This document shows, piece by piece, positions 3,364 to 39,257 of a stretch of 40,794 nt of DNA. Origin of the DNA: a virus. Taxonomy: Duplodnaviria > Caudoviricetes. Positions within the stretch are counted from its first letter, which is position 1; each line of letters opens with the position of its first letter. The translations under genes and the position numbers were made by a program. Location of the stretch: IMG/VR virus record IMGVR_UViG_3300012943_000045, positions 1 through 40,794 of that record; one strand, written 5' to 3'. The notes below the pieces were generated by a model. It saw only the letters and a list, made by a program, of their open reading frames with translations, searched no databases and was not told where the DNA came from.

Positions 3364-4023
3364 CTAGATGTGTGACCAAGTTTCACGGTTGTATGCAGCA
3401 ACAATCGTTGGTACGCTGACATTGAATTTTCGAGCCATCTGTGAATAAAAGCCGTGATATTTCTCAACGGCTCGAATCTCGTGGACCTGAACTTCCGTCA
3501 GTACCGCTCGGGCGTTCAGTGCGCCCTTGTGCGCATCTGACATTTTCTTTTTCGTAGACTCAGAAGCCTTACCCTGAAATGATCGTGCATAATCCATAAG
3601 CTCCTTGCGCTTGCGCCCATACATATGGTTACCGCTTCCTCGCATTTTTTCTGATGCACCGGGGTTTCGGTGACCCCGGGGCTGTGCCCCGCCCTCAAGT
3701 ATGTTGGTAAGATCCTGACCCGATTCACGAAAGAACTTTATCCAATATATTTCCCGCTCGTCCAACTCGCTCTCTAGGCACTCCTCCAACACACTAAAAA
3801 CTATGCTATCCGGGCCATGCTTTCGAATCCATCGGGAAGTTTTGCTCTGGTAGCTACTTGAACTCTCCGTTCGTGCATGCCATAGATGAACTGACCACCT
3901 AGAGTTCAGACCCTTTGAGGTCAGTCCGACGTAACGCACCCCACCCTCCGGGTGGCAAATGCACCAGGCCACGTAAATGACGTTCTTGGGTGTGGCAATA
4001 GTTTTGCGTGATACTGTACTCAT
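3364..4023 (-). CDS. Free-standing GIY-YIG homing endonuclease with NUMOD3-like repeats
   Basis: VIY...RYVGLT...RW..H, catalytic E in LDEREIYWI, LTN motif; SESTKKKMSDAHKG repeat; lower GC than flanks. Confidence 0.88.
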   Translation of the reverse strand: MSTVSRKTIATPKNVIYVAWCICHPEGGVRYVGLTSKGLNSRWSVHLWHARTESSSSYQSKTSRWIRKHGPDSIVFSVLEECLESELDEREIYWIKFFRESGQDLTNILEGGAQPRGHRNPGASEKMRGSGNHMYGRKRKELMDYARSFQGKASESTKKKMSDAHKGALNARAVLTEVQVHEIRAVEKYHGFYSQMARKFNVSVPTIVAAYNRETWSHI

Positions 4024-8306: not shown

Positions 8307-10946
8307 TTACAGGGGGAACCCGCCACCATCAACACTCATTAGCCCCATAATCTCCAACGGGTCCCGCAAAACCACATCACCCTTAGACAATCCGCCCGCC
8401 CGCTCATCATCCTCCCCATACCCGTACAGATCGATGAACGCGAGTATCGCAGAGTCTAGGTTGTCAGGAGATTTCAGCCCAGCCTTGCGCATCTCGTCCT
8501 TGGGCGTGATCTGGATGGCTCGCCTCGCATTCAACTTGAACGTTTGTGCGCTCATCTGATCCCGCAACTTGGTATCCACCGTGATATCAAGGTCAATCTC
8601 GCCCATCTGCATGGCGCGGCGGAACATGTCGTAAGACCACGAGCGTGCCTGCGCCCATGCTCCAATATCTAGTGAGCCCTTGCCCCCTTGGAATCCGTAC
8701 AGATCGTAGGGGGCGCTAGCAAACTGTGGCTGCGTCTTGAGGAGACTGTACACACCGGCACCCGGCCCCGAAGCGTCCACATTCACCTCGTCCACACCAT
8801 GCTTGAGCGCCATCGCGTGAACGTTCTCAGCCTGGACCATATAATCAGCCTCGCCATTGTACGATTCCAGGAACCGGATACGGCCACCCTCGTTCAGATA
8901 GAAACAGGTGTCGTCTTCACCCGCAAAAGCAAGGTCAACACCCAGTCTGCGGATATCATCATCCGTCGGGTCAATATCCGTGTTGCCAGCCGTGGTGATC
9001 GCTGCCTGGGTGAAGAAAGAGCTGGTGCTGTCCTTCGGGAACTCACCCTCAACCTTCGCTAGGTAGACGTTGGGGTGCGCTTCGCGCTTCATGCGGTCAG
9101 CCCAGTCCGGCTGAATCATGTACGTCTTTACGAGCTTGTCACGCTCAAGGTCGTCCGGGTAGATGATCTCGCCGGTGAAATTTGGAGTGTCGAACGCCGA
9201 GATGGTGTGGCGCTTCCACTGCGAGTACTTGTCGTCCTCGTTCGAAAAGCGCCGGTGGAACCCCGTGTTCAACTCATCCGGGTTGCCGATTGCGAGAATG
9301 GCTGTGTGCGCGTTGGTCGTAACTGCGTTTGCGCCGATCCACAAGTCCTCGGGCAGGCCCCCAGCCTCGTCCATGAGCACGAACACGAAGCCATCGTGAG
9401 TACCCTGGAACGAACTGATCAGGTTCTTGTCCGCGGGACGGCGACCCATGATAATGTCTTTAGGCATCAACCCGGGGCCACGGTCAAACCGAACGGCGGG
9501 GTCCGAGACGACACGCCCCGGCAAGAAAAAACCCCGCGCAGCAGCCTCAGAGTAGTTGTCTGTGATGTACTTGAAGGCGTTCTGGCTAATCTGTGTGAAT
9601 ACGTTTGCTGTAGCCAGCACCGAGGTGTCAAGCGGGTCGTGGACGCTCACCGCCCACGTCATCAAGTCAGCGCCTAGCCGTGTGTTATGCGTTGGGATCA
9701 TCCACTCCGAGGCCAGGTATAACGACCTCGGGGAGTCTACCTGCACGCACGCCGTAGCTACCGTGTCGATGCGCTCGACAGAAACCACCGTGCGAACCGT
9801 CTTGCGGCTCTCCTGCGCCCCCACCAGCTTGAACTGGTCACTCTTGTAGCAACTCTTCGAAAAGGGGCTACGCTGCGGGTTGAACACCATCCTGTACCGG
9901 ATGCCAAACTTTTCGGAACCCAAATAAGAATCAGCAGCCGTGATAGAGATACGCACTCCCAGCGAGCGCACCAACTCTACGGTGCCACGAGCCAGCGCCT
10001 CATTGGTGAAGTCAATGCCGCATGTCGATGATCCAGGCTTTACGAATCCATCTGTGTCCATTAGGCCACGCAGAAGCTCCCAGCGCTGCGCCACGGAGGC
10101 CCGCAAGTACGCATCTGGTATGTGTTTGTTGTTTTTTAGGTTCAGCGGACGTATGTCCTGCATAAAGTTTTGATGAGTAAAGGTGAATCGCAAATCCCCA
10201 CTCACGCCACTGGTGGGGGCATGGCGAAGCTCGTATCCCCGTTCAGCAAATTCATCGACGATGAAGCGCGCATGACTTCCAGCAGTCATTGATGCGTCAG
10301 CGGAGGCCCCATCCCCAAGCCACGCGCCCAGTATGTATGGATCAACCGGCAGGTCAGCCCCTGCGCCAACGATCGCACGGTTAATGGGTATGGCATGGTT
10401 TCGCGCATTCGACGGACGCAACGTGTCCGCAATGTCAACAGTAGTAAGTGTGGCCGACTCCTCCCAGTGGTCACGCCAGTCCAAGACGTGCCGACGGCGA
10501 CTAATGTTCCCCCGCACTTTTTGCGTCAGCGTATTCCACTGGTGCGGACCCGAGGCGACTATCTCAGCACCATCACTAAACTTCACCAGATAAGTATCGT
10601 CATACTGCACGTCAGACTTGAACGTGACGGCTGTCGGCTCGCCGGTCTCGTCCAGCAGAATGTCGCCGGGCTGAACCTCGCCCATCGTTGTCCAGCCCGT
10701 AGGCGTCGGCAGTGGAGTATCTAGACTCAGCGCCTTGCCCACGCCGTTCGCTGACTTCACAAGCGTAAAGGTCTGGCCCGTCCCGTCACCCACAACGTCA
10801 ACAGCAATCTCAGCCTGCCTGGACCACCAACGGCGACCCATAACATCGGCCATCCACGCCTCAGCGTCACGCTGGTAAATCTTCTTCCGGGACTTCTGCC
10901 GAATCTCTTCTAACGCAAGCTCAGCAATCCTGCTTAGACCGCTCAC
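8307..10946 (-). CDS. terL: Terminase large subunit containing an intein (529 aa after splicing)
   Basis: Walker A SANGVGK/T split by the intein, Walker B VLMDEAGG, AIGNP, nuclease motifs LGVDLA, VDASGPG, SPDNLDS. Confidence 0.93.
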   Translation of the reverse strand: MSGLSRIAELALEEIRQKSRKKIYQRDAEAWMADVMGRRWWSRQAEIAVDVVGDGTGQTFTLVKSANGVGKALSLDTPLPTPTGWTTMGEVQPGDILLDETGEPTAVTFKSDVQYDDTYLVKFSDGAEIVASGPHQWNTLTQKVRGNISRRRHVLDWRDHWEESATLTTVDIADTLRPSNARNHAIPINRAIVGAGADLPVDPYILGAWLGDGASADASMTAGSHARFIVDEFAERGYELRHAPTSGVSGDLRFTFTHQNFMQDIRPLNLKNNKHIPDAYLRASVAQRWELLRGLMDTDGFVKPGSSTCGIDFTNEALARGTVELVRSLGVRISITAADSYLGSEKFGIRYRMVFNPQRSPFSKSCYKSDQFKLVGAQESRKTVRTVVSVERIDTVATACVQVDSPRSLYLASEWMIPTHNTRLGADLMTWAVSVHDPLDTSVLATANVFTQISQNAFKYITDNYSEAAARGFFLPGRVVSDPAVRFDRGPGLMPKDIIMGRRPADKNLISSFQGTHDGFVFVLMDEAGGLPEDLWIGANAVTTNAHTAILAIGNPDELNTGFHRRFSNEDDKYSQWKRHTISAFDTPNFTGEIIYPDDLERDKLVKTYMIQPDWADRMKREAHPNVYLAKVEGEFPKDSTSSFFTQAAITTAGNTDIDPTDDDIRRLGVDLAFAGEDDTCFYLNEGGRIRFLESYNGEADYMVQAENVHAMALKHGVDEVNVDASGPGAGVYSLLKTQPQFASAPYDLYGFQGGKGSLDIGAWAQARSWSYDMFRRAMQMGEIDLDITVDTKLRDQMSAQTFKLNARRAIQITPKDEMRKAGLKSPDNLDSAILAFIDLYGYGEDDERAGGLSKGDVVLRDPLEIMGLMSVDGGGFPL
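9684..10733 (-). mobile_element. Class 3 intein, 350 aa, with LAGLIDADG endonuclease
   Basis: Begins ALSLDTPLPTPTGW, ends PTHN/T; W in block B (HQW), C in block F (TACVQV), T in block G; YILGAWLGDG and LLRGLMDTDG motifs. Confidence 0.92.
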
Positions 10947-11443
10947 GGGGCATCTTCAACGTAAGTGCTGGCAATCGCAGCAATATCCGCATTGAACTGC
11001 TCCACCAGTTCAGCCTGGTCAACCTCCGGGTACAGCGCCTCAAGCCTGCCAAGTTGCTTATAGTACGCCTTCTCGACAATACTCACCAACTCATGGGCAC
11101 GCCTACGGTTGACCTCCTCCACGTCAACCTGAGACGCCTTCTCCTGATCACGCAGTTCCTTGAGGATACCCGTCCACAGGCTACGCACAGCGTTAACCGC
11201 AGACCCGTACTCACGGTCGCCAAGATTGGAAAGGCGAACTTTCGCGTCCTCGGCGAGCAACCCCATCTGAATGATAAGGCGCGCACGCATCTGGTTGAGG
11301 TCAAGGTAGTCCAAAGACTTGAGAAGAGCATTCGTCTCCCGGAGAACCTCTTCCGGGGAAATGCCCAGCTCCTCGCCCAACTGCTCCGCAGTCTTGAGAC
11401 CAGCGTAGTTGATAAGAGTTCTTTGTTTAGCGCCAAGGTCCAT
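10943..11443 (-). CDS. Terminase small subunit (putative)
   Basis: N-terminal HTH (TAEQLGEELGISPEEV) and coiled-coil helices; directly upstream of terL; probable leaderless ATG 8 nt after TGGTAGAAT. Confidence 0.65.
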   Translation of the reverse strand: MDLGAKQRTLINYAGLKTAEQLGEELGISPEEVLRETNALLKSLDYLDLNQMRARLIIQMGLLAEDAKVRLSNLGDREYGSAVNAVRSLWTGILKELRDQEKASQVDVEEVNRRRAHELVSIVEKAYYKQLGRLEALYPEVDQAELVEQFNADIAAIASTYVEDAP

Positions 11444-11468
11444 AGACCCACATTCTACCAAACAATCG

Positions 11469-11546
11469 TGAAGCGCCAGGGATTCGGACCCTGCTCCGTG
11501 CCGTGCGCCTTAACGCCTTACGTCACGTCGAAACCAAGTGCGCCCC
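11469..11546 (-). ncRNA. Minimal tmRNA-like RNA (tRNA-like domain only)
   Basis: GGGGCGC-ACUUGGUUUCGA-CGUGACGU..ACGGCACG-GAG-CAGGG UCCGAAU CCCUG-GCGCUUC-A; G3.U70 pair and A73. Confidence 0.75.
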
Positions 11547-11663: not shown

Positions 11664-11912
11664 CTATCCCGCCACTGTCGTACACAGGGTGGTCGCTGGG
11701 AACTCGTTCGCTCTCCCACCCCCCCCCCCCTCAATGCGGGTTCCATTGAGAAAGGGTCGTAGCGGCGGGGCGCTCTCCGTCAACTCAACCACCTCCGGCC
11801 CTCGCGAAACATCCGCAACACTCAAATCCGGGTCCGGCGCAACCACCTGCTGAATCTTCCGCAAACTGCGCTCAATCCTCGTCAAAAGACGAACAATCTC
11901 TTTGTCACTCAC
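11664..11912 (-). CDS. Hypothetical protein containing a G12 tract
   Basis: Probable GTG start overlapping the previous gene (MSDKEIVRLL); the 3' end depends on the homopolymer length. Confidence 0.5.
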   Translation of the reverse strand: MSDKEIVRLLTRIERSLRKIQQVVAPDPDLSVADVSRGPEVVELTESAPPLRPFLNGTRIEGGGGGRANEFPATTLCTTVAG

Positions 11913-15650: not shown

Positions 15651-15710
15651 AGTCGAAACACGCTCTCGGGCGTGTCCTCCCGCGATAGCCGTTCGGGAGC
15701 TGATGAGACT
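15651..15710 (+). ncRNA. Type II hammerhead ribozyme
   Basis: Stem II AGUC/GACU, GAAA, stem III ACACGCU/GGCGUGU, GUC site (C15676), stem I CUCCCG/CGGGAG, CUGAUGA core. Confidence 0.93.
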
Positions 15711-15746
15711 AGGCGAAAGAAACAACGATCTTAAGGAAGCGTTAAA

Positions 15747-15878
15747 ATGTCGCAATCTTTCGAAGCTAAAGCAGTTTACGTGTCACGCAAAGTTGCGGAC
15801 CGTGAAAGAACTACGATTCTTAAAGCAGCGCGCACCGATAAGGCTGTCGCGCGTGCATCGTTCGGGGGTGCACGATGA
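15747..15878 (+). CDS. Hypothetical basic protein, 43 aa (not in the ORF track)
   Basis: AAGGAAG RBS; ATGA overlap with the next gene. Confidence 0.6.
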   Translation: MSQSFEAKAVYVSRKVADRERTTILKAARTDKAVARASFGGAR

Positions 15879-28070: not shown

Positions 28071-29524
28071 CCAGGCTCACTCCGCATGACTACCAGGAGG
28101 AGGCTCTTGAGCTTATGCTTGCAGAGCCGACCAGGGCGTGTCTGCTGGCCTCGGACATGGGGCGTGGCAAGACGCTCATGGCCGTGGAGTTCGCGCTCAG
28201 AATCAAGGCAGAACTTGTTTTAGTAGTTGGCGTGAAAGACACTTGGGGGCAGTTCAATGAACGCTTTCTTGCGCAGTCCGGGGGGACTGTGGGCGTGAAG
28301 AACATAAACAGCACCGCCAGCGGCAAGAGGGCCGAGGCGGACTTGCTGTGGGGAATTCCAGGAGTGTACTTCATCGGGGCGCAGCTTCTGACGCGAAAAG
28401 ACTGGGCGAACGAGAAGAAGATTCGTGACGGAAAAGAAGTTTCTGTTGGTCGTCGCCTAAAGACTTTCGACAACCTTGAACTTGACTTGGTGATCGCAGA
28501 TGAGGTTCACCTGTACGGAGCGCCGACAAGTCGTGGTCGTAAGACGCTGATGGGCCTCAATCCGAAGTATCGTGTAGCAATGAGCGGCACGTTCTACGGC
28601 AACAAGTTCCAGAACGCGTGGGCACCAACAGCTTGGCTCTGGCCGGACATTGTGGACCAGAACTTCTACTCATGGAAGGCCCGCTGGTGTCTAGAGGAGG
28701 CGGTTCTGACGCGTCGCGGCACTGAGCTCAAGAAGACCCTCAAGAGCGGCGAGCAGGTGGTTATCAAAGAACTCAAGGGCGAGATTCCGCCAGAGGGTCG
28801 CTACGTCGCAAGCCTGCCGCTGTACATTCGGCACGAGGATGACATGGAGCTTCCCGAGCCGCGCATTGTCGAGGTGGATTTGCTGCCCGAACAACGGCGC
28901 ATGTACTCCGAGCTGGAAGATAACCTTCTGACGTGGATCAAAGGCCACCCGTTCGCGGTGGAGTTCCCAAGTACGCTTGCGGGGCGGTTGAGGACGGCAA
29001 GCCTGGGCTCGTTCTCTCTCGACCCGGAGACGGACGAGATTACGTTCGATGAAGACATGGTGAGTAGTAAGCTTGACGCACTGCTGGCCGAGATTGAGCG
29101 TGCAGGTGGTGAGCGACAGGTGATTGGCACGCACTCGAAGCGATACGCTCGTGAGGTTGCACGAAGGATGCAGGGCGCTGGGTTACGCGCAGTCGTCTGG
29201 ACTGGCGACACGTCCACGAAGAAGCGCTCCGACATCAAGCAGATGTGGCTGGATGGTGACATTGATTTCATCGTGACCGTCATGAAGTCTTTCAGCACTG
29301 GCCTCGACTGGGCCAAGGACGGTTGCAATCGGATGACCGTGCTCTCACGCCCCGTGGGTGACGGCGTGACCTTCGATCAGTGGATCAAGCGTGTTTTCCG
29401 TCCCGGTGGAGACCGTGAGAAGTTTGAGTGGACCGAGATTATTGCGCGTGACACCTACGACACTGGAGACTTTGCCAGCGCTGAGCTTGCAGCGGCCGTT
29501 AGGCGGCGGAGTATGGGTGCTTAG
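28067..29524 (+). CDS. Superfamily 2 (SNF2/DEAD-like) DNA helicase
   Basis: PHDYQ, DMGRGKT, IADEVH, AMSGT, SSKLD, STGLD, QWIKRVFRPG. Confidence 0.9.
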   Translation: MTRLTPHDYQEEALELMLAEPTRACLLASDMGRGKTLMAVEFALRIKAELVLVVGVKDTWGQFNERFLAQSGGTVGVKNINSTASGKRAEADLLWGIPGVYFIGAQLLTRKDWANEKKIRDGKEVSVGRRLKTFDNLELDLVIADEVHLYGAPTSRGRKTLMGLNPKYRVAMSGTFYGNKFQNAWAPTAWLWPDIVDQNFYSWKARWCLEEAVLTRRGTELKKTLKSGEQVVIKELKGEIPPEGRYVASLPLYIRHEDDMELPEPRIVEVDLLPEQRRMYSELEDNLLTWIKGHPFAVEFPSTLAGRLRTASLGSFSLDPETDEITFDEDMVSSKLDALLAEIERAGGERQVIGTHSKRYAREVARRMQGAGLRAVVWTGDTSTKKRSDIKQMWLDGDIDFIVTVMKSFSTGLDWAKDGCNRMTVLSRPVGDGVTFDQWIKRVFRPGGDREKFEWTEIIARDTYDTGDFASAELAAAVRRRSMGA

Positions 29525-38917: not shown

Positions 38918-39166
38918 CTACGACTCTTCTACGTGCCTACCAGGCTCCTGCGCGTCAGAAGCTTCACCGACGTGCTTGGGGAGAGTAAAACTGGTCCCAA
39001 CACTGATAAGGGCGGCAAGCCCTGCGATGCTGAGGACGCTAATCCACTCGATCTCGTGAATACCAGTAGCGCCAGTGGCAATAATTGCGGCAATCGCTGC
39101 CTGGACAAACGTCTTAGCCGAGCGTTCGGCAACGCCCTTCCAGAAGGCTTTAGTTGAAATGCTCAT
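38918..39166 (-). CDS. Holin (r1t-like)
   Basis: FWKGVAERSAKTFVQA, two TM helices, W..VLS.AGLAALIS..TS; leaderless TAGAAT-N6-ATG. Confidence 0.88.
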   Translation of the reverse strand: MSISTKAFWKGVAERSAKTFVQAAIAAIIATGATGIHEIEWISVLSIAGLAALISVGTSFTLPKHVGEASDAQEPGRHVEES

Positions 39167-39257
39167 TCTACCATTCTACCGCATCCGAGCAAAAGAAAAC
39201 CCCCCAAGTGCGCATCGTGGAGAGGCGTGGGGGGTGTAGTGTCCCTAGTCTAGCAGA

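What the first reader, a model, noticed from the sequence alone, without database searches (positions are those of the whole stretch)
11466..11546. 78-nt mini-tmRNA: intact tRNA-like domain with the whole mRNA/tag domain missing
Seen: the minus strand reads GGGGCGC ACUUGGUUUCGA CGUG-A-CGU AAG GCG UUAAGG CGC ACG-G-CACG GAG CAGGG UCCGAAU CCCUG GCGCUUC A CGA. This gives a 7-bp acceptor with G3.U70 and A73, a stemless D loop with GGUUUCGAC, a helix-2-like stem, a 3-nt linker and a 5-bp T arm. Known: GGGG..GG(U/A)UUCGAC with a stemless D loop is the tmRNA (ssrA) signature bound by SmpB, and G3.U70 is the AlaRS determinant. Bacterial tmRNAs carry a long pseudoknot and tag region in helix 2; here a 6-nt loop closes it. 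Inference: it could be an SmpB decoy that blocks trans-translation, or a rescue RNA that adds Ala with no degradation tag. CCA is not encoded and would need host addition.
Basis: partly seen in the sequence, partly recalled or inferred. Interest (0 to 1): 0.92.

Follow-up and report, generated by a model that had tools for sequence, protein, structure and literature searches.

The report
Phage tagless mini-tmRNA, divergent copy
A soil phage carries a real 78-base gene that keeps only the alanine-accepting, tRNA-like head of the bacterial ribosome-rescue RNA (tmRNA) and has no tag message; this kind of RNA is already published from one other phage and is common but unannotated in phages, where it likely competes with the host's rescue-and-tag system, and this copy is unusually divergent and may be weakened.

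Summary
Confirmed, but a known kind. Window 11546-11469 (minus) is a tRNA-like-domain-only (TLD-only) tmRNA gene just upstream of the predicted terS of a CMP1/Cassita-like actinophage. A covariance model built from 25 other phage copies scores it 61.7 bits (next window hit 14.5, ordinary tRNAs at most 19.7) and finds the published TLD-only tmRNA of phage DS6A at 63.1 bits with the same layout. The family is large: 162 unique IMG/VR copies from two pattern scans, strong covariation, G3.U70 and A73 in 93 of 93 copies where the pattern left them free, unannotated copies in cultured Streptomyces phages, and a chromosomal copy beside a full tmRNA in Poribacteria. Most likely it is processed, binds host SmpB and competes with host tmRNA, lowering SsrA tagging (inferred; published for a similar RNA). 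Tag-free rescue and incipient decay are the rivals. This scan has reported the same kind on other DNA at least eight times.

The parts
11469..11546 (-). TLD-only (tagless) tmRNA gene, 78 nt from G1 to discriminator A73
   Evidence: Model R1 61.7 bits over all 77 positions; structural parse
11540..11546 (-). Acceptor stem 5' strand (G1-C7); pairs with 11470-11476
   Evidence: pair probabilities 0.99 or more
11528..11539 (-). Stemless D loop: 4-nt variable prefix, then the conserved tmRNA-type octamer; predicted SmpB-binding elbow side
   Evidence: elbow binding from PMC3968760 passages; binding not tested
11497..11527 (-). Helix 2 (7 of 8 pairs, one A.G mismatch), AAG bulge and 3-4 bp inner hairpin, in place of the whole pseudoknot/tag domain
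   Evidence: family helix-2 pairs 2-6 paired in 442 of 465 cells against 37-47% when slid
11494..11496 (-). 3-nt linker GAG (family: GAC 66, GAA 12, GAT 10, GAG 1 of 93)
11477..11493 (-). T arm, 5 of 5 pairs, loop with C at position 55 (13 of 93 family copies share C55)
11469..11476 (-). Acceptor 3' strand with U70 (G3.U70), U71 (G2.U71 wobble, unique to this copy among 97) and A73
11466..11468 (-). CGA at the CCA positions: CCA is not encoded and would need host addition
   Evidence: 42 of 93 family copies encode CCA; a Streptomyces full tmRNA also lacks it
11452..11461 (-). Likely extended -10 promoter of the predicted terS (hexamer at 11457-11452, ATG 8 nt further), downstream of the RNA
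   Evidence: the same octamer type occurs 7 times in the window (2 of 100 shuffles reach 7); consensus match only
10943..11443 (-). Predicted small terminase subunit, 166 aa, by position before terL; no PHROG hit
   Evidence: one 95% identical relative P0001

Best explanation
This is a phage gene for a 78-base, tag-less tmRNA of the DS6A kind, whose RNA likely binds the host's SmpB protein and competes with the host's own tmRNA, so that fewer stalled proteins would be tagged for degradation during infection. Steps: (1) shown: sequence and fold of a tmRNA tRNA-like domain, no room for a tag frame, membership of a covarying family; no smpB in this contig (44% complete) or in five cultured carriers, so the partner would be the host's. 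(2) Inferred from tmRNA biology: it is cut from a longer read-through transcript by RNase P, trimmed and given CCA by host enzymes. (3) Inferred: SmpB binds the D-loop/T-loop elbow. (4) Inferred from the invariant G3.U70/A73: family members are alanylated and so also compete at AlaRS, EF-Tu and the empty ribosomal A site; this copy's G2.U71 probably lowers charging, which pushes it towards a pure SmpB sponge. (5) Published for a similar RNA: inhibition of tmRNA whether or not it can be charged.
For: Family membership: R1 61.7 bits versus 63.1 for DS6A at JN698994 28478-28557 and at most 19.7 for tRNAs. Selection on structure: 96.8% of 493 cells paired, 0 of 500 shuffles as high, slid controls 38-57% (the 25 training rows); 98.0% of 1585 cells on 82 model-fitted rows (leans to the model). 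118 of 119 pattern hits had a full acceptor and T stem although the acceptor 3' strand was not in the pattern. Copies sit beside an intact rescue system: full tmRNA plus smpB in 5 of 5 carrier genomes and a full tmRNA in 3 of 5 more. No smpB in 5 of 5 cultured carriers or the own contig and no full tmRNA in those 5. PMC4131195 (passage): a similar molecule, chargeable or not, strongly inhibits tmRNA, perhaps by titrating SmpB; PMC11915505 (passage) says the same of the DS6A form in E. coli.
Against: A pure sponge does not explain why G1-C72, G2-C71, G3.U70 and A73 are kept in 93 of 93 copies: SmpB binds the elbow, not the acceptor end. Poribacteria keep a chromosomal copy (22 loci), which is hard to read as sabotage. 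The inhibition result is known to me only from two citing passages; the primary paper is not held. This copy has three rare states and a weak fold z, and C55 may loosen the D/T-loop contact needed for SmpB binding (inference). Why a lytic phage would gain from less tagging is not shown.
Confidence: 0.5

Rival explanations
1. Tag-free rescue: the RNA is alanylated, enters stalled non-stop ribosomes with SmpB and EF-Tu, accepts the nascent chain and frees the ribosome by drop-off or another release factor, adding one or a few alanines instead of the tag. It would help rather than block translation of abundant late phage proteins.
For: Alanine identity set invariant in 93 of 93; position 2-71 stays paired even when changed (A2-U71 in L202). 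Copies lie in tRNA arrays (16 of 83 long loci have a tRNA neighbour) or among head, packaging and lysis genes. Chromosomal copy in Poribacteria with a promoter-like site. One Saccharibacteria bin has a 70-nt copy about 590 bp from smpB and no other ssrA found. CDS-less tmRNAs persist in mitochondria and some plastids (PMC11915505 passage).
Against: The one published test of such an RNA found inhibition (citing passages). With no stop codon a release step is missing. The Saccharibacteria bin is 0.5 Mb, incomplete, and alone in its family among held genomes; PMC11915505 warns of internal deletions in some MAGs. This copy lacks G2-C71, a listed bacterial alanine determinant (PMC9976931 Table 1).
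Confidence: 0.23
2. This particular copy is a decaying member: a once functional mini-tmRNA that arrived as a mobile extra gene and is losing function.
For: Most rare states of 97 copies (3; 77 copies have none) and fold z rank 86 of 97; rank 69 of 82 by R1 score; one-sided changes at pair 2, helix 2 and position 55; 10 of 10 tested relatives pass the RF00023 cut-off but this one does not ring. Related phages lack it: 0 of 5 whole records (positive control 5 of 5), 0 of 12 terL-related loci, 0 of 4 portal-related loci; all these relatives are distant (30-53% protein identity) and some loci end before the site.
Against: All 12 acceptor and T pairs, G3.U70, A73 and the D-loop octamer are kept; pair 7 is a two-sided change (C-G); C55 is shared by 13 of 93 copies, GAG and C7-G66 recur in 1 and 2 of 69 further copies; DS6A scores as low (63.1 bits, and 43.2 bits on RF00023, under the cut-off). 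The comparison set was gathered by a strict pattern, so it is biased to typical copies.
Confidence: 0.18
3. The RNA serves as bait or processing signal: a decoy for host defence nucleases that cut tmRNA or tRNA, or an RNase P/RNase Z cleavage site that separates upstream transcripts from the terS operon.
For: It sits at the junction where relatives carry a terminator-like hairpin or tRNA genes before terS; no terminator was found here and no convincing own promoter.
Against: Neither use needs the exact alanine identity set or the tmRNA D-loop octamer; neighbours vary widely across the family. No test bears on it directly.
Confidence: 0.07
4. An ordinary or decayed tRNA-Ala, an integration-site remnant of ssrA, or an assembly artefact that deleted the middle of a full tmRNA.
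For: No ARAGORN or Rfam tmRNA call. One GTDB hit (L159) could be such a collapsed ssrA.
Against: tRNAs score at most 19.7 bits on R1 against 61.7; no D stem or anticodon arm; both ends present; sizes cluster at 60-86 nt, with about 150 estimated hits at spacer 15-45 against 6 at spacer 46-76 (patterns differ slightly); a separate assembly shows the same letters; cultured, finished phage genomes carry the form.
Confidence: 0.02

Closest known systems
TLD-only ('standard, no CDS') tmRNA of mycobacteriophage DS6A (tmID 11587; PMC4131195, PMC11915505; located here at JN698994 28478-28557)
   Same: Gene order, size (80 versus 78 nt), acceptor with G3.U70/A73, stemless D loop, helix 2 with A-rich bulge and short inner hairpin, 3-nt linker, T arm, no encoded CCA, actinobacterial phage; both score 62-63 bits on R1.
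   Different: DS6A keeps G2-C71 and U55 but has an altered D-loop octamer and CAC linker; this copy keeps the octamer but has G2.U71, C55 and GAG. DS6A's copy lies after the tail and lysis block, this one before terS. The sequences are not close.
Standard bacterial tmRNA (ssrA; Rfam RF00023)
   Same: Both ends of the molecule: acceptor, D loop, helix 2a, linker, T arm. 10 of 10 tested family copies match model positions 1-374 with an internal deletion at 57-81 bits.
   Different: No pseudoknots, resume codon, tag frame or stop codon; this copy itself does not ring on RF00023.
CDS-less organellar tmRNAs (jakobid and oomycete mitochondria; about 65-nt Mallomonadaceae plastid genes; PMC11915505 passage)
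   Same: No tag frame, alanine-type tRNA-like domain, thought to act with SmpB.
   Different: They are the only tmRNA of their compartment; this one is phage-borne and would meet a full host tmRNA.
RqcH/RqcP alanine tailing (PMC8012679 passages)
   Same: Template-free addition of alanine to stalled chains is the closest known outcome to the tag-free rescue reading.
   Different: Uses ordinary tRNA-Ala on split 50S subunits and no SmpB; resemblance of outcome only, not tested.

Membership tests
TLD-only tmRNA (DS6A kind) | 5' and 3' tmRNA ends in standard order within about 60-100 nt, no tag frame | tested here: met
   78 nt, 31 nt between D loop and linker; full-length match to R1, which also finds DS6A
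TLD-only tmRNA (DS6A kind) | 7-bp acceptor with G3.U70 and A73 | tested here: met
TLD-only tmRNA (DS6A kind) | G2-C71 (secondary alanine determinant; 93 of 93 in the first IMG/VR set) | tested here: not met
   G2.U71; pair kept as wobble; one other copy has A2-U71, so the family tolerates change here; determinant listed in PMC9976931 Table 1
TLD-only tmRNA (DS6A kind) | Stemless D loop with tmRNA octamer, helix 2a, 3-nt linker, 5-bp T stem | tested here: met
   linker GAG and T-loop C55 are minority states
TLD-only tmRNA (DS6A kind) | Expressed, processed, binds SmpB, inhibits host tmRNA | not testable with these tools
   Needs RNA data and bench assays
Standard tmRNA (RF00023) | mRNA-like domain with resume codon, tag frame, stop codon and pseudoknots | tested here: not met
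   No room for it; ARAGORN 0
Standard tmRNA (RF00023) | Score at or above 47 bits | tested here: not met
   No match at E up to 10; may be partly a filter loss
Permuted two-piece tmRNA | T arm and acceptor 3' strand precede the acceptor 5' strand | tested here: not met
   Standard order
tRNA-Ala (RF00005) | D stem and anticodon arm | tested here: not met
   Absent in fold; no ARAGORN or RF00005 hit

The most novel reading that the evidence does not exclude
Tag-less tmRNAs are not saboteurs but a second, tag-free branch of trans-translation: charged with alanine, they take over stalled ribosomes with host SmpB and release or alanine-tail the chain without the degradation tag. Phages spread them as free-standing genes among late genes and tRNA arrays, Poribacteria keep one as a chromosomal partner of their full tmRNA, and this copy, with its G2.U71 pair, is a natural variant that has uncoupled SmpB binding from charging.
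Probability: 0.23. Interest if true: 0.75.

Novelty: new member of a known kind. Interest (0 to 1): 0.38.

Why it matters
The kind is published from one phage and 9 of 97,179 curated tmRNA sequences are 'standard, no CDS' (PMC11915505), yet 162 unique phage copies turned up in two exact-pattern scans, and finished Streptomyces and Stenotrophomonas phage records carry it with no RNA annotation. That makes phage control of ribosome rescue look common and testable in laboratory Streptomyces. This copy adds a natural variant at the alanine identity pair and the T loop, useful for asking whether charging is needed, and shows that standard tools miss divergent copies. As a single find it is not a new system.

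Tried and rejected
ARAGORN and Rfam on the window: no tRNA or tmRNA call. blastn of the element region against 50,697 phage records: 2 chance hits. Search for close relatives of the phage: a first terS query used the wrong reading frame (discarded); the right frame found none in IMG/VR; portal gave 4 distant loci, terL 12, capsid none in metagenomes; none carries the RNA. A metagenome pattern for this copy's T loop gave 2 hits: the window's own sequence (L209) and one non-member. A pattern for U71 copies gave 10 hits, 1 of them a family member. Sequencing runs: no RNA holder listed, which says nothing on expression. The contig of the 95% identical terS relative P0001 could not be fetched. ARAGORN's 320-340-nt tmRNA calls over 4 of 121 loci were rejected: Rfam places the match on the short element in the 2 checked (L008, L046). 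A dedicated promoter for the RNA was not found (two TANNNT hexamers 4 and 47 nt upstream, no convincing -35). No fixed partner gene across phage loci (88 of 220 cluster representatives scanned). Literature: 'mini-tmRNA' 0 papers; tmRNA+tagless+phage 3 unrelated listings; Poribacteria+tmRNA 6 unrelated listings; searches showed no survey of the family in their listings. Mao et al. 2009 is not held. The held supplement of PMC11915505 had none of four search terms; the sequence database itself was not seen, so which 9 sequences form the no-CDS class is not known to me.

Full report
Observation. It folds into a 7-bp acceptor (G1-C72, G2.U71, G3.U70, G4-C69, C5-G68, G6-C67, C7-G66; A73), a 12-nt stemless D loop, a helix of 7 of 8 pairs with an AAG bulge and a 3-4 bp inner hairpin, a 3-nt linker and a 5-bp T arm. 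CCA is not encoded. Standard tools see nothing: ARAGORN 0 genes, no RF00023 or tRNA hit at E up to 10, and folding energy is unremarkable (z -0.50). One 678-nt contig of public run X1 spans the element with no other letter, gap or joint; X1 may be the source sample, so this checks the assembly, not the distribution.

Setting. The window is a linear phage contig, 44% complete by CheckV, with terL, portal, maturation protease, WhiB-like, Erf and primase genes. Its terL is closest to Clavibacter phages CMP1 (51%) and CN1A and Microbacterium phage Cassita, so an actinobacterial host is likely (inference). The RNA lies between a block of small same-strand genes and the predicted terS (ATG 11443), 10 nt before a likely extended -10 box of a type found 7 times in the window (2 of 100 shuffles reach 7). 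At the same junction CMP1 and Cassita have a hairpin and CN1A two tRNA-type genes and a terminator. None of 5 related whole records carries the RNA (the same search rings in 5 of 5 known carriers), nor 16 distant portal- or terL-related loci. It behaves as an extra, mobile gene.

Family. 118 of 119 parsed with 7 of 7 acceptor and 5 of 5 T pairs (L088 did not), giving 93 unique sequences of 60-86 nt. The pattern left the acceptor 3' strand free, yet G1-C72, G2-C71, G3.U70 and A73 occur in 93 of 93; acceptor pairs 5-6, T pairs 1-3 and helix 2 vary with compensation (helix-2 pairs 2-6: 442 of 465 cells paired, 37-47% when slid). A second, disjoint pattern gave 94 loci, 93 parsed, 69 unique (it fixed the last four bases, so it says nothing on identity elements). 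Longer spacers gave only 6 loci, all family-like, so size is tight. On the 25 rows used for the model, 96.8% of 493 cells pair, 13 of 20 pairs show two-sided change and 0 of 500 shuffles reach the score (relatedness can inflate this control, but slid controls fall to 38-57%). The inner hairpin is weaker (76.7%).

Membership. Model R1, built from those 25 rows without the window copy, scores the window element 61.7 bits over its whole length; the next of 17 window hits is 14.5. It finds DS6A 28478-28557 at 63.1 bits, and unannotated copies in Streptomyces phages Shaeky (70.7), LuckySocke (69.5), BRock (67.0) and Stenotrophomonas phage Jojan60 (67.9; overlapped by a hypothetical CDS); tRNAs reach at most 19.7. 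Ten of 10 tested copies also match RF00023 end to end at 57-81 bits. The DS6A 'TLD only' RNA is published: PMC4131195 (passages) and PMC11915505 (first fifth of the text and passages), which count 9 'standard, no CDS' genes among 97,179 and cite Mao et al. 2009 for inhibition of endogenous tmRNA, chargeable or not, perhaps by titrating SmpB. I could not read Mao et al.. So the element is a new member of a known kind. Eight earlier notes of this scan describe the same kind on other DNA; I had located the DS6A copy and the family before reading them.

What is special about this copy. It has three rare states at positions the pattern left free (G2.U71, C7-G66, linker G), the most of 97 copies, 77 of which have none; its fold z ranks 86 of 97 and its R1 score 69 of 82. 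G2-C71 is a listed bacterial alanine determinant (PMC9976931 Table 1 passage). C55 replaces the uridine that is modified in tmRNA T loops, and D/T-loop contacts are needed for SmpB binding (PMC3968760 passages); 13 of 93 copies, one marine clade, share C55, 0 of 69 in the second set. One other copy has U71, paired with A2 (L202). The comparison sets were gathered by strict patterns and lean to typical copies, and DS6A is about as divergent (43.2 bits on RF00023, under the cut-off). Weakening is plausible, loss is not shown.

Context across the family. 16 of 83 long loci have a tRNA gene within about 1.5-2.5 kb; others lie next to terS, terL, portal, protease, major head, adaptor or endolysin genes, with no fixed partner (88 of 220 cluster representatives scanned). 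No phage locus held has an SmpB match; 0 of 5 cultured carriers and the own contig have smpB and those 5 have no full tmRNA. In GTDB the pattern gave 46 loci: 22 in Poribacteria, 11 other intact copies (several in tRNA arrays), 1 aberrant and 12 chance or unrelated (most Poribacteria copies were read by eye because the parser missed them; two scored 60.8 and 60.6 bits). The Poribacteria copy is syntenic (a PLP-decarboxylase-like neighbour in 19 of 22 loci, a Ca/Na antiporter in 15), and 4 of 4 tested genomes also hold a full tmRNA beside smpB. Of 5 further carriers 3 have a full tmRNA and 2 incomplete bins show only the short form, one of them next to smpB.

Mechanism. Shown: anatomy, family, covariation, absence of a tag frame, absence of a phage smpB in what was searched. 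Inferred from tmRNA biology (PMC8012679, PMC3968760 passages): RNase P and 3' processing with CCA addition, SmpB binding at the elbow, alanylation, EF-Tu delivery. I commit to competition with host tmRNA for SmpB and stalled ribosomes, lowering SsrA tagging (0.5), because it is the only tested activity of such an RNA and does not need charging, which suits this copy. The invariant alanine identity and the Poribacteria copy keep tag-free rescue alive (0.23); decay of this copy 0.18; bait or processing signal 0.07; tRNA, integration remnant or artefact 0.02. Expression is untested.

Verdict. Real, correctly identified, known kind; interest 0.38. The value lies in the size of the unannotated family, the cultured Streptomyces carriers that make the open question testable, and this natural variant.

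Noticed in passing
L136-L178 (22 Poribacteria loci; e.g. L150:4001-4083): Conserved chromosomal 82-83 nt TLD-only tmRNA with a sigma70-like site upstream, syntenic between a PLP-decarboxylase-like gene and a Ca/Na antiporter; 4 of 4 tested genomes also have a full tmRNA beside smpB; one chromosome has two copies, one of them by cmr6/cas6 genes. No paper listing found.
   Followed up: partly
L145:3324-3393 (G006) and L210-L213: Saccharibacteria bin with a 70-nt tagless tmRNA about 590 bp from smpB and no other ssrA found; 5 of 41 genomes of the class show a match of 71-139 nt, 3 of them beside a full tmRNA.
   Followed up: partly
L127:2491-2569, L129:1991-2068, L130:1991-2068, L128:2492-2571: Unannotated mini-tmRNA genes in or beside the tRNA arrays of cultured phages Shaeky, LuckySocke, BRock and Jojan60: ready test systems.
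   Followed up: yes
window 15651-15718 (+): Type II hammerhead ribozyme match, 38.4 bits against a cut-off of 37, upstream of an ORF starting at 15748 region.
   Followed up: no
window 39199-39234 (-): Rfam abiF match (46.4 bits, cut-off 37) that reads like an intrinsic terminator followed by a doubled -10 box and a likely leaderless ATG at 39166.
   Followed up: partly
window 11709-11730 (-): A long G run in the ORF upstream of the RNA; the public contigs break here, so the reading frame of that ORF is uncertain.
   Followed up: no
window 8307-10946 (-) and 3364-4023 (-): terL of 879 aa probably holds an intein, as annotated for CN1A; a GIY-YIG homing endonuclease follows the likely capsid gene, as in Cassita.
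   Followed up: no
L002:5345-5418: An unannotated tRNA-like gene with a CAT anticodon-like loop follows the annotated tRNA-Trp of Clavibacter phage CN1A.
   Followed up: no
L046:1675-1736 (-): Pistol ribozyme (51.9 bits) about 105 nt upstream of a mini-tmRNA on the same strand.
   Followed up: no
L007, L012, L013, L023, L025, L026 and related loci: A clade of 74-nt copies with C55 lies 3 nt downstream of terS in 9 loci; the window copy also abuts a terS, on the other side.
   Followed up: partly
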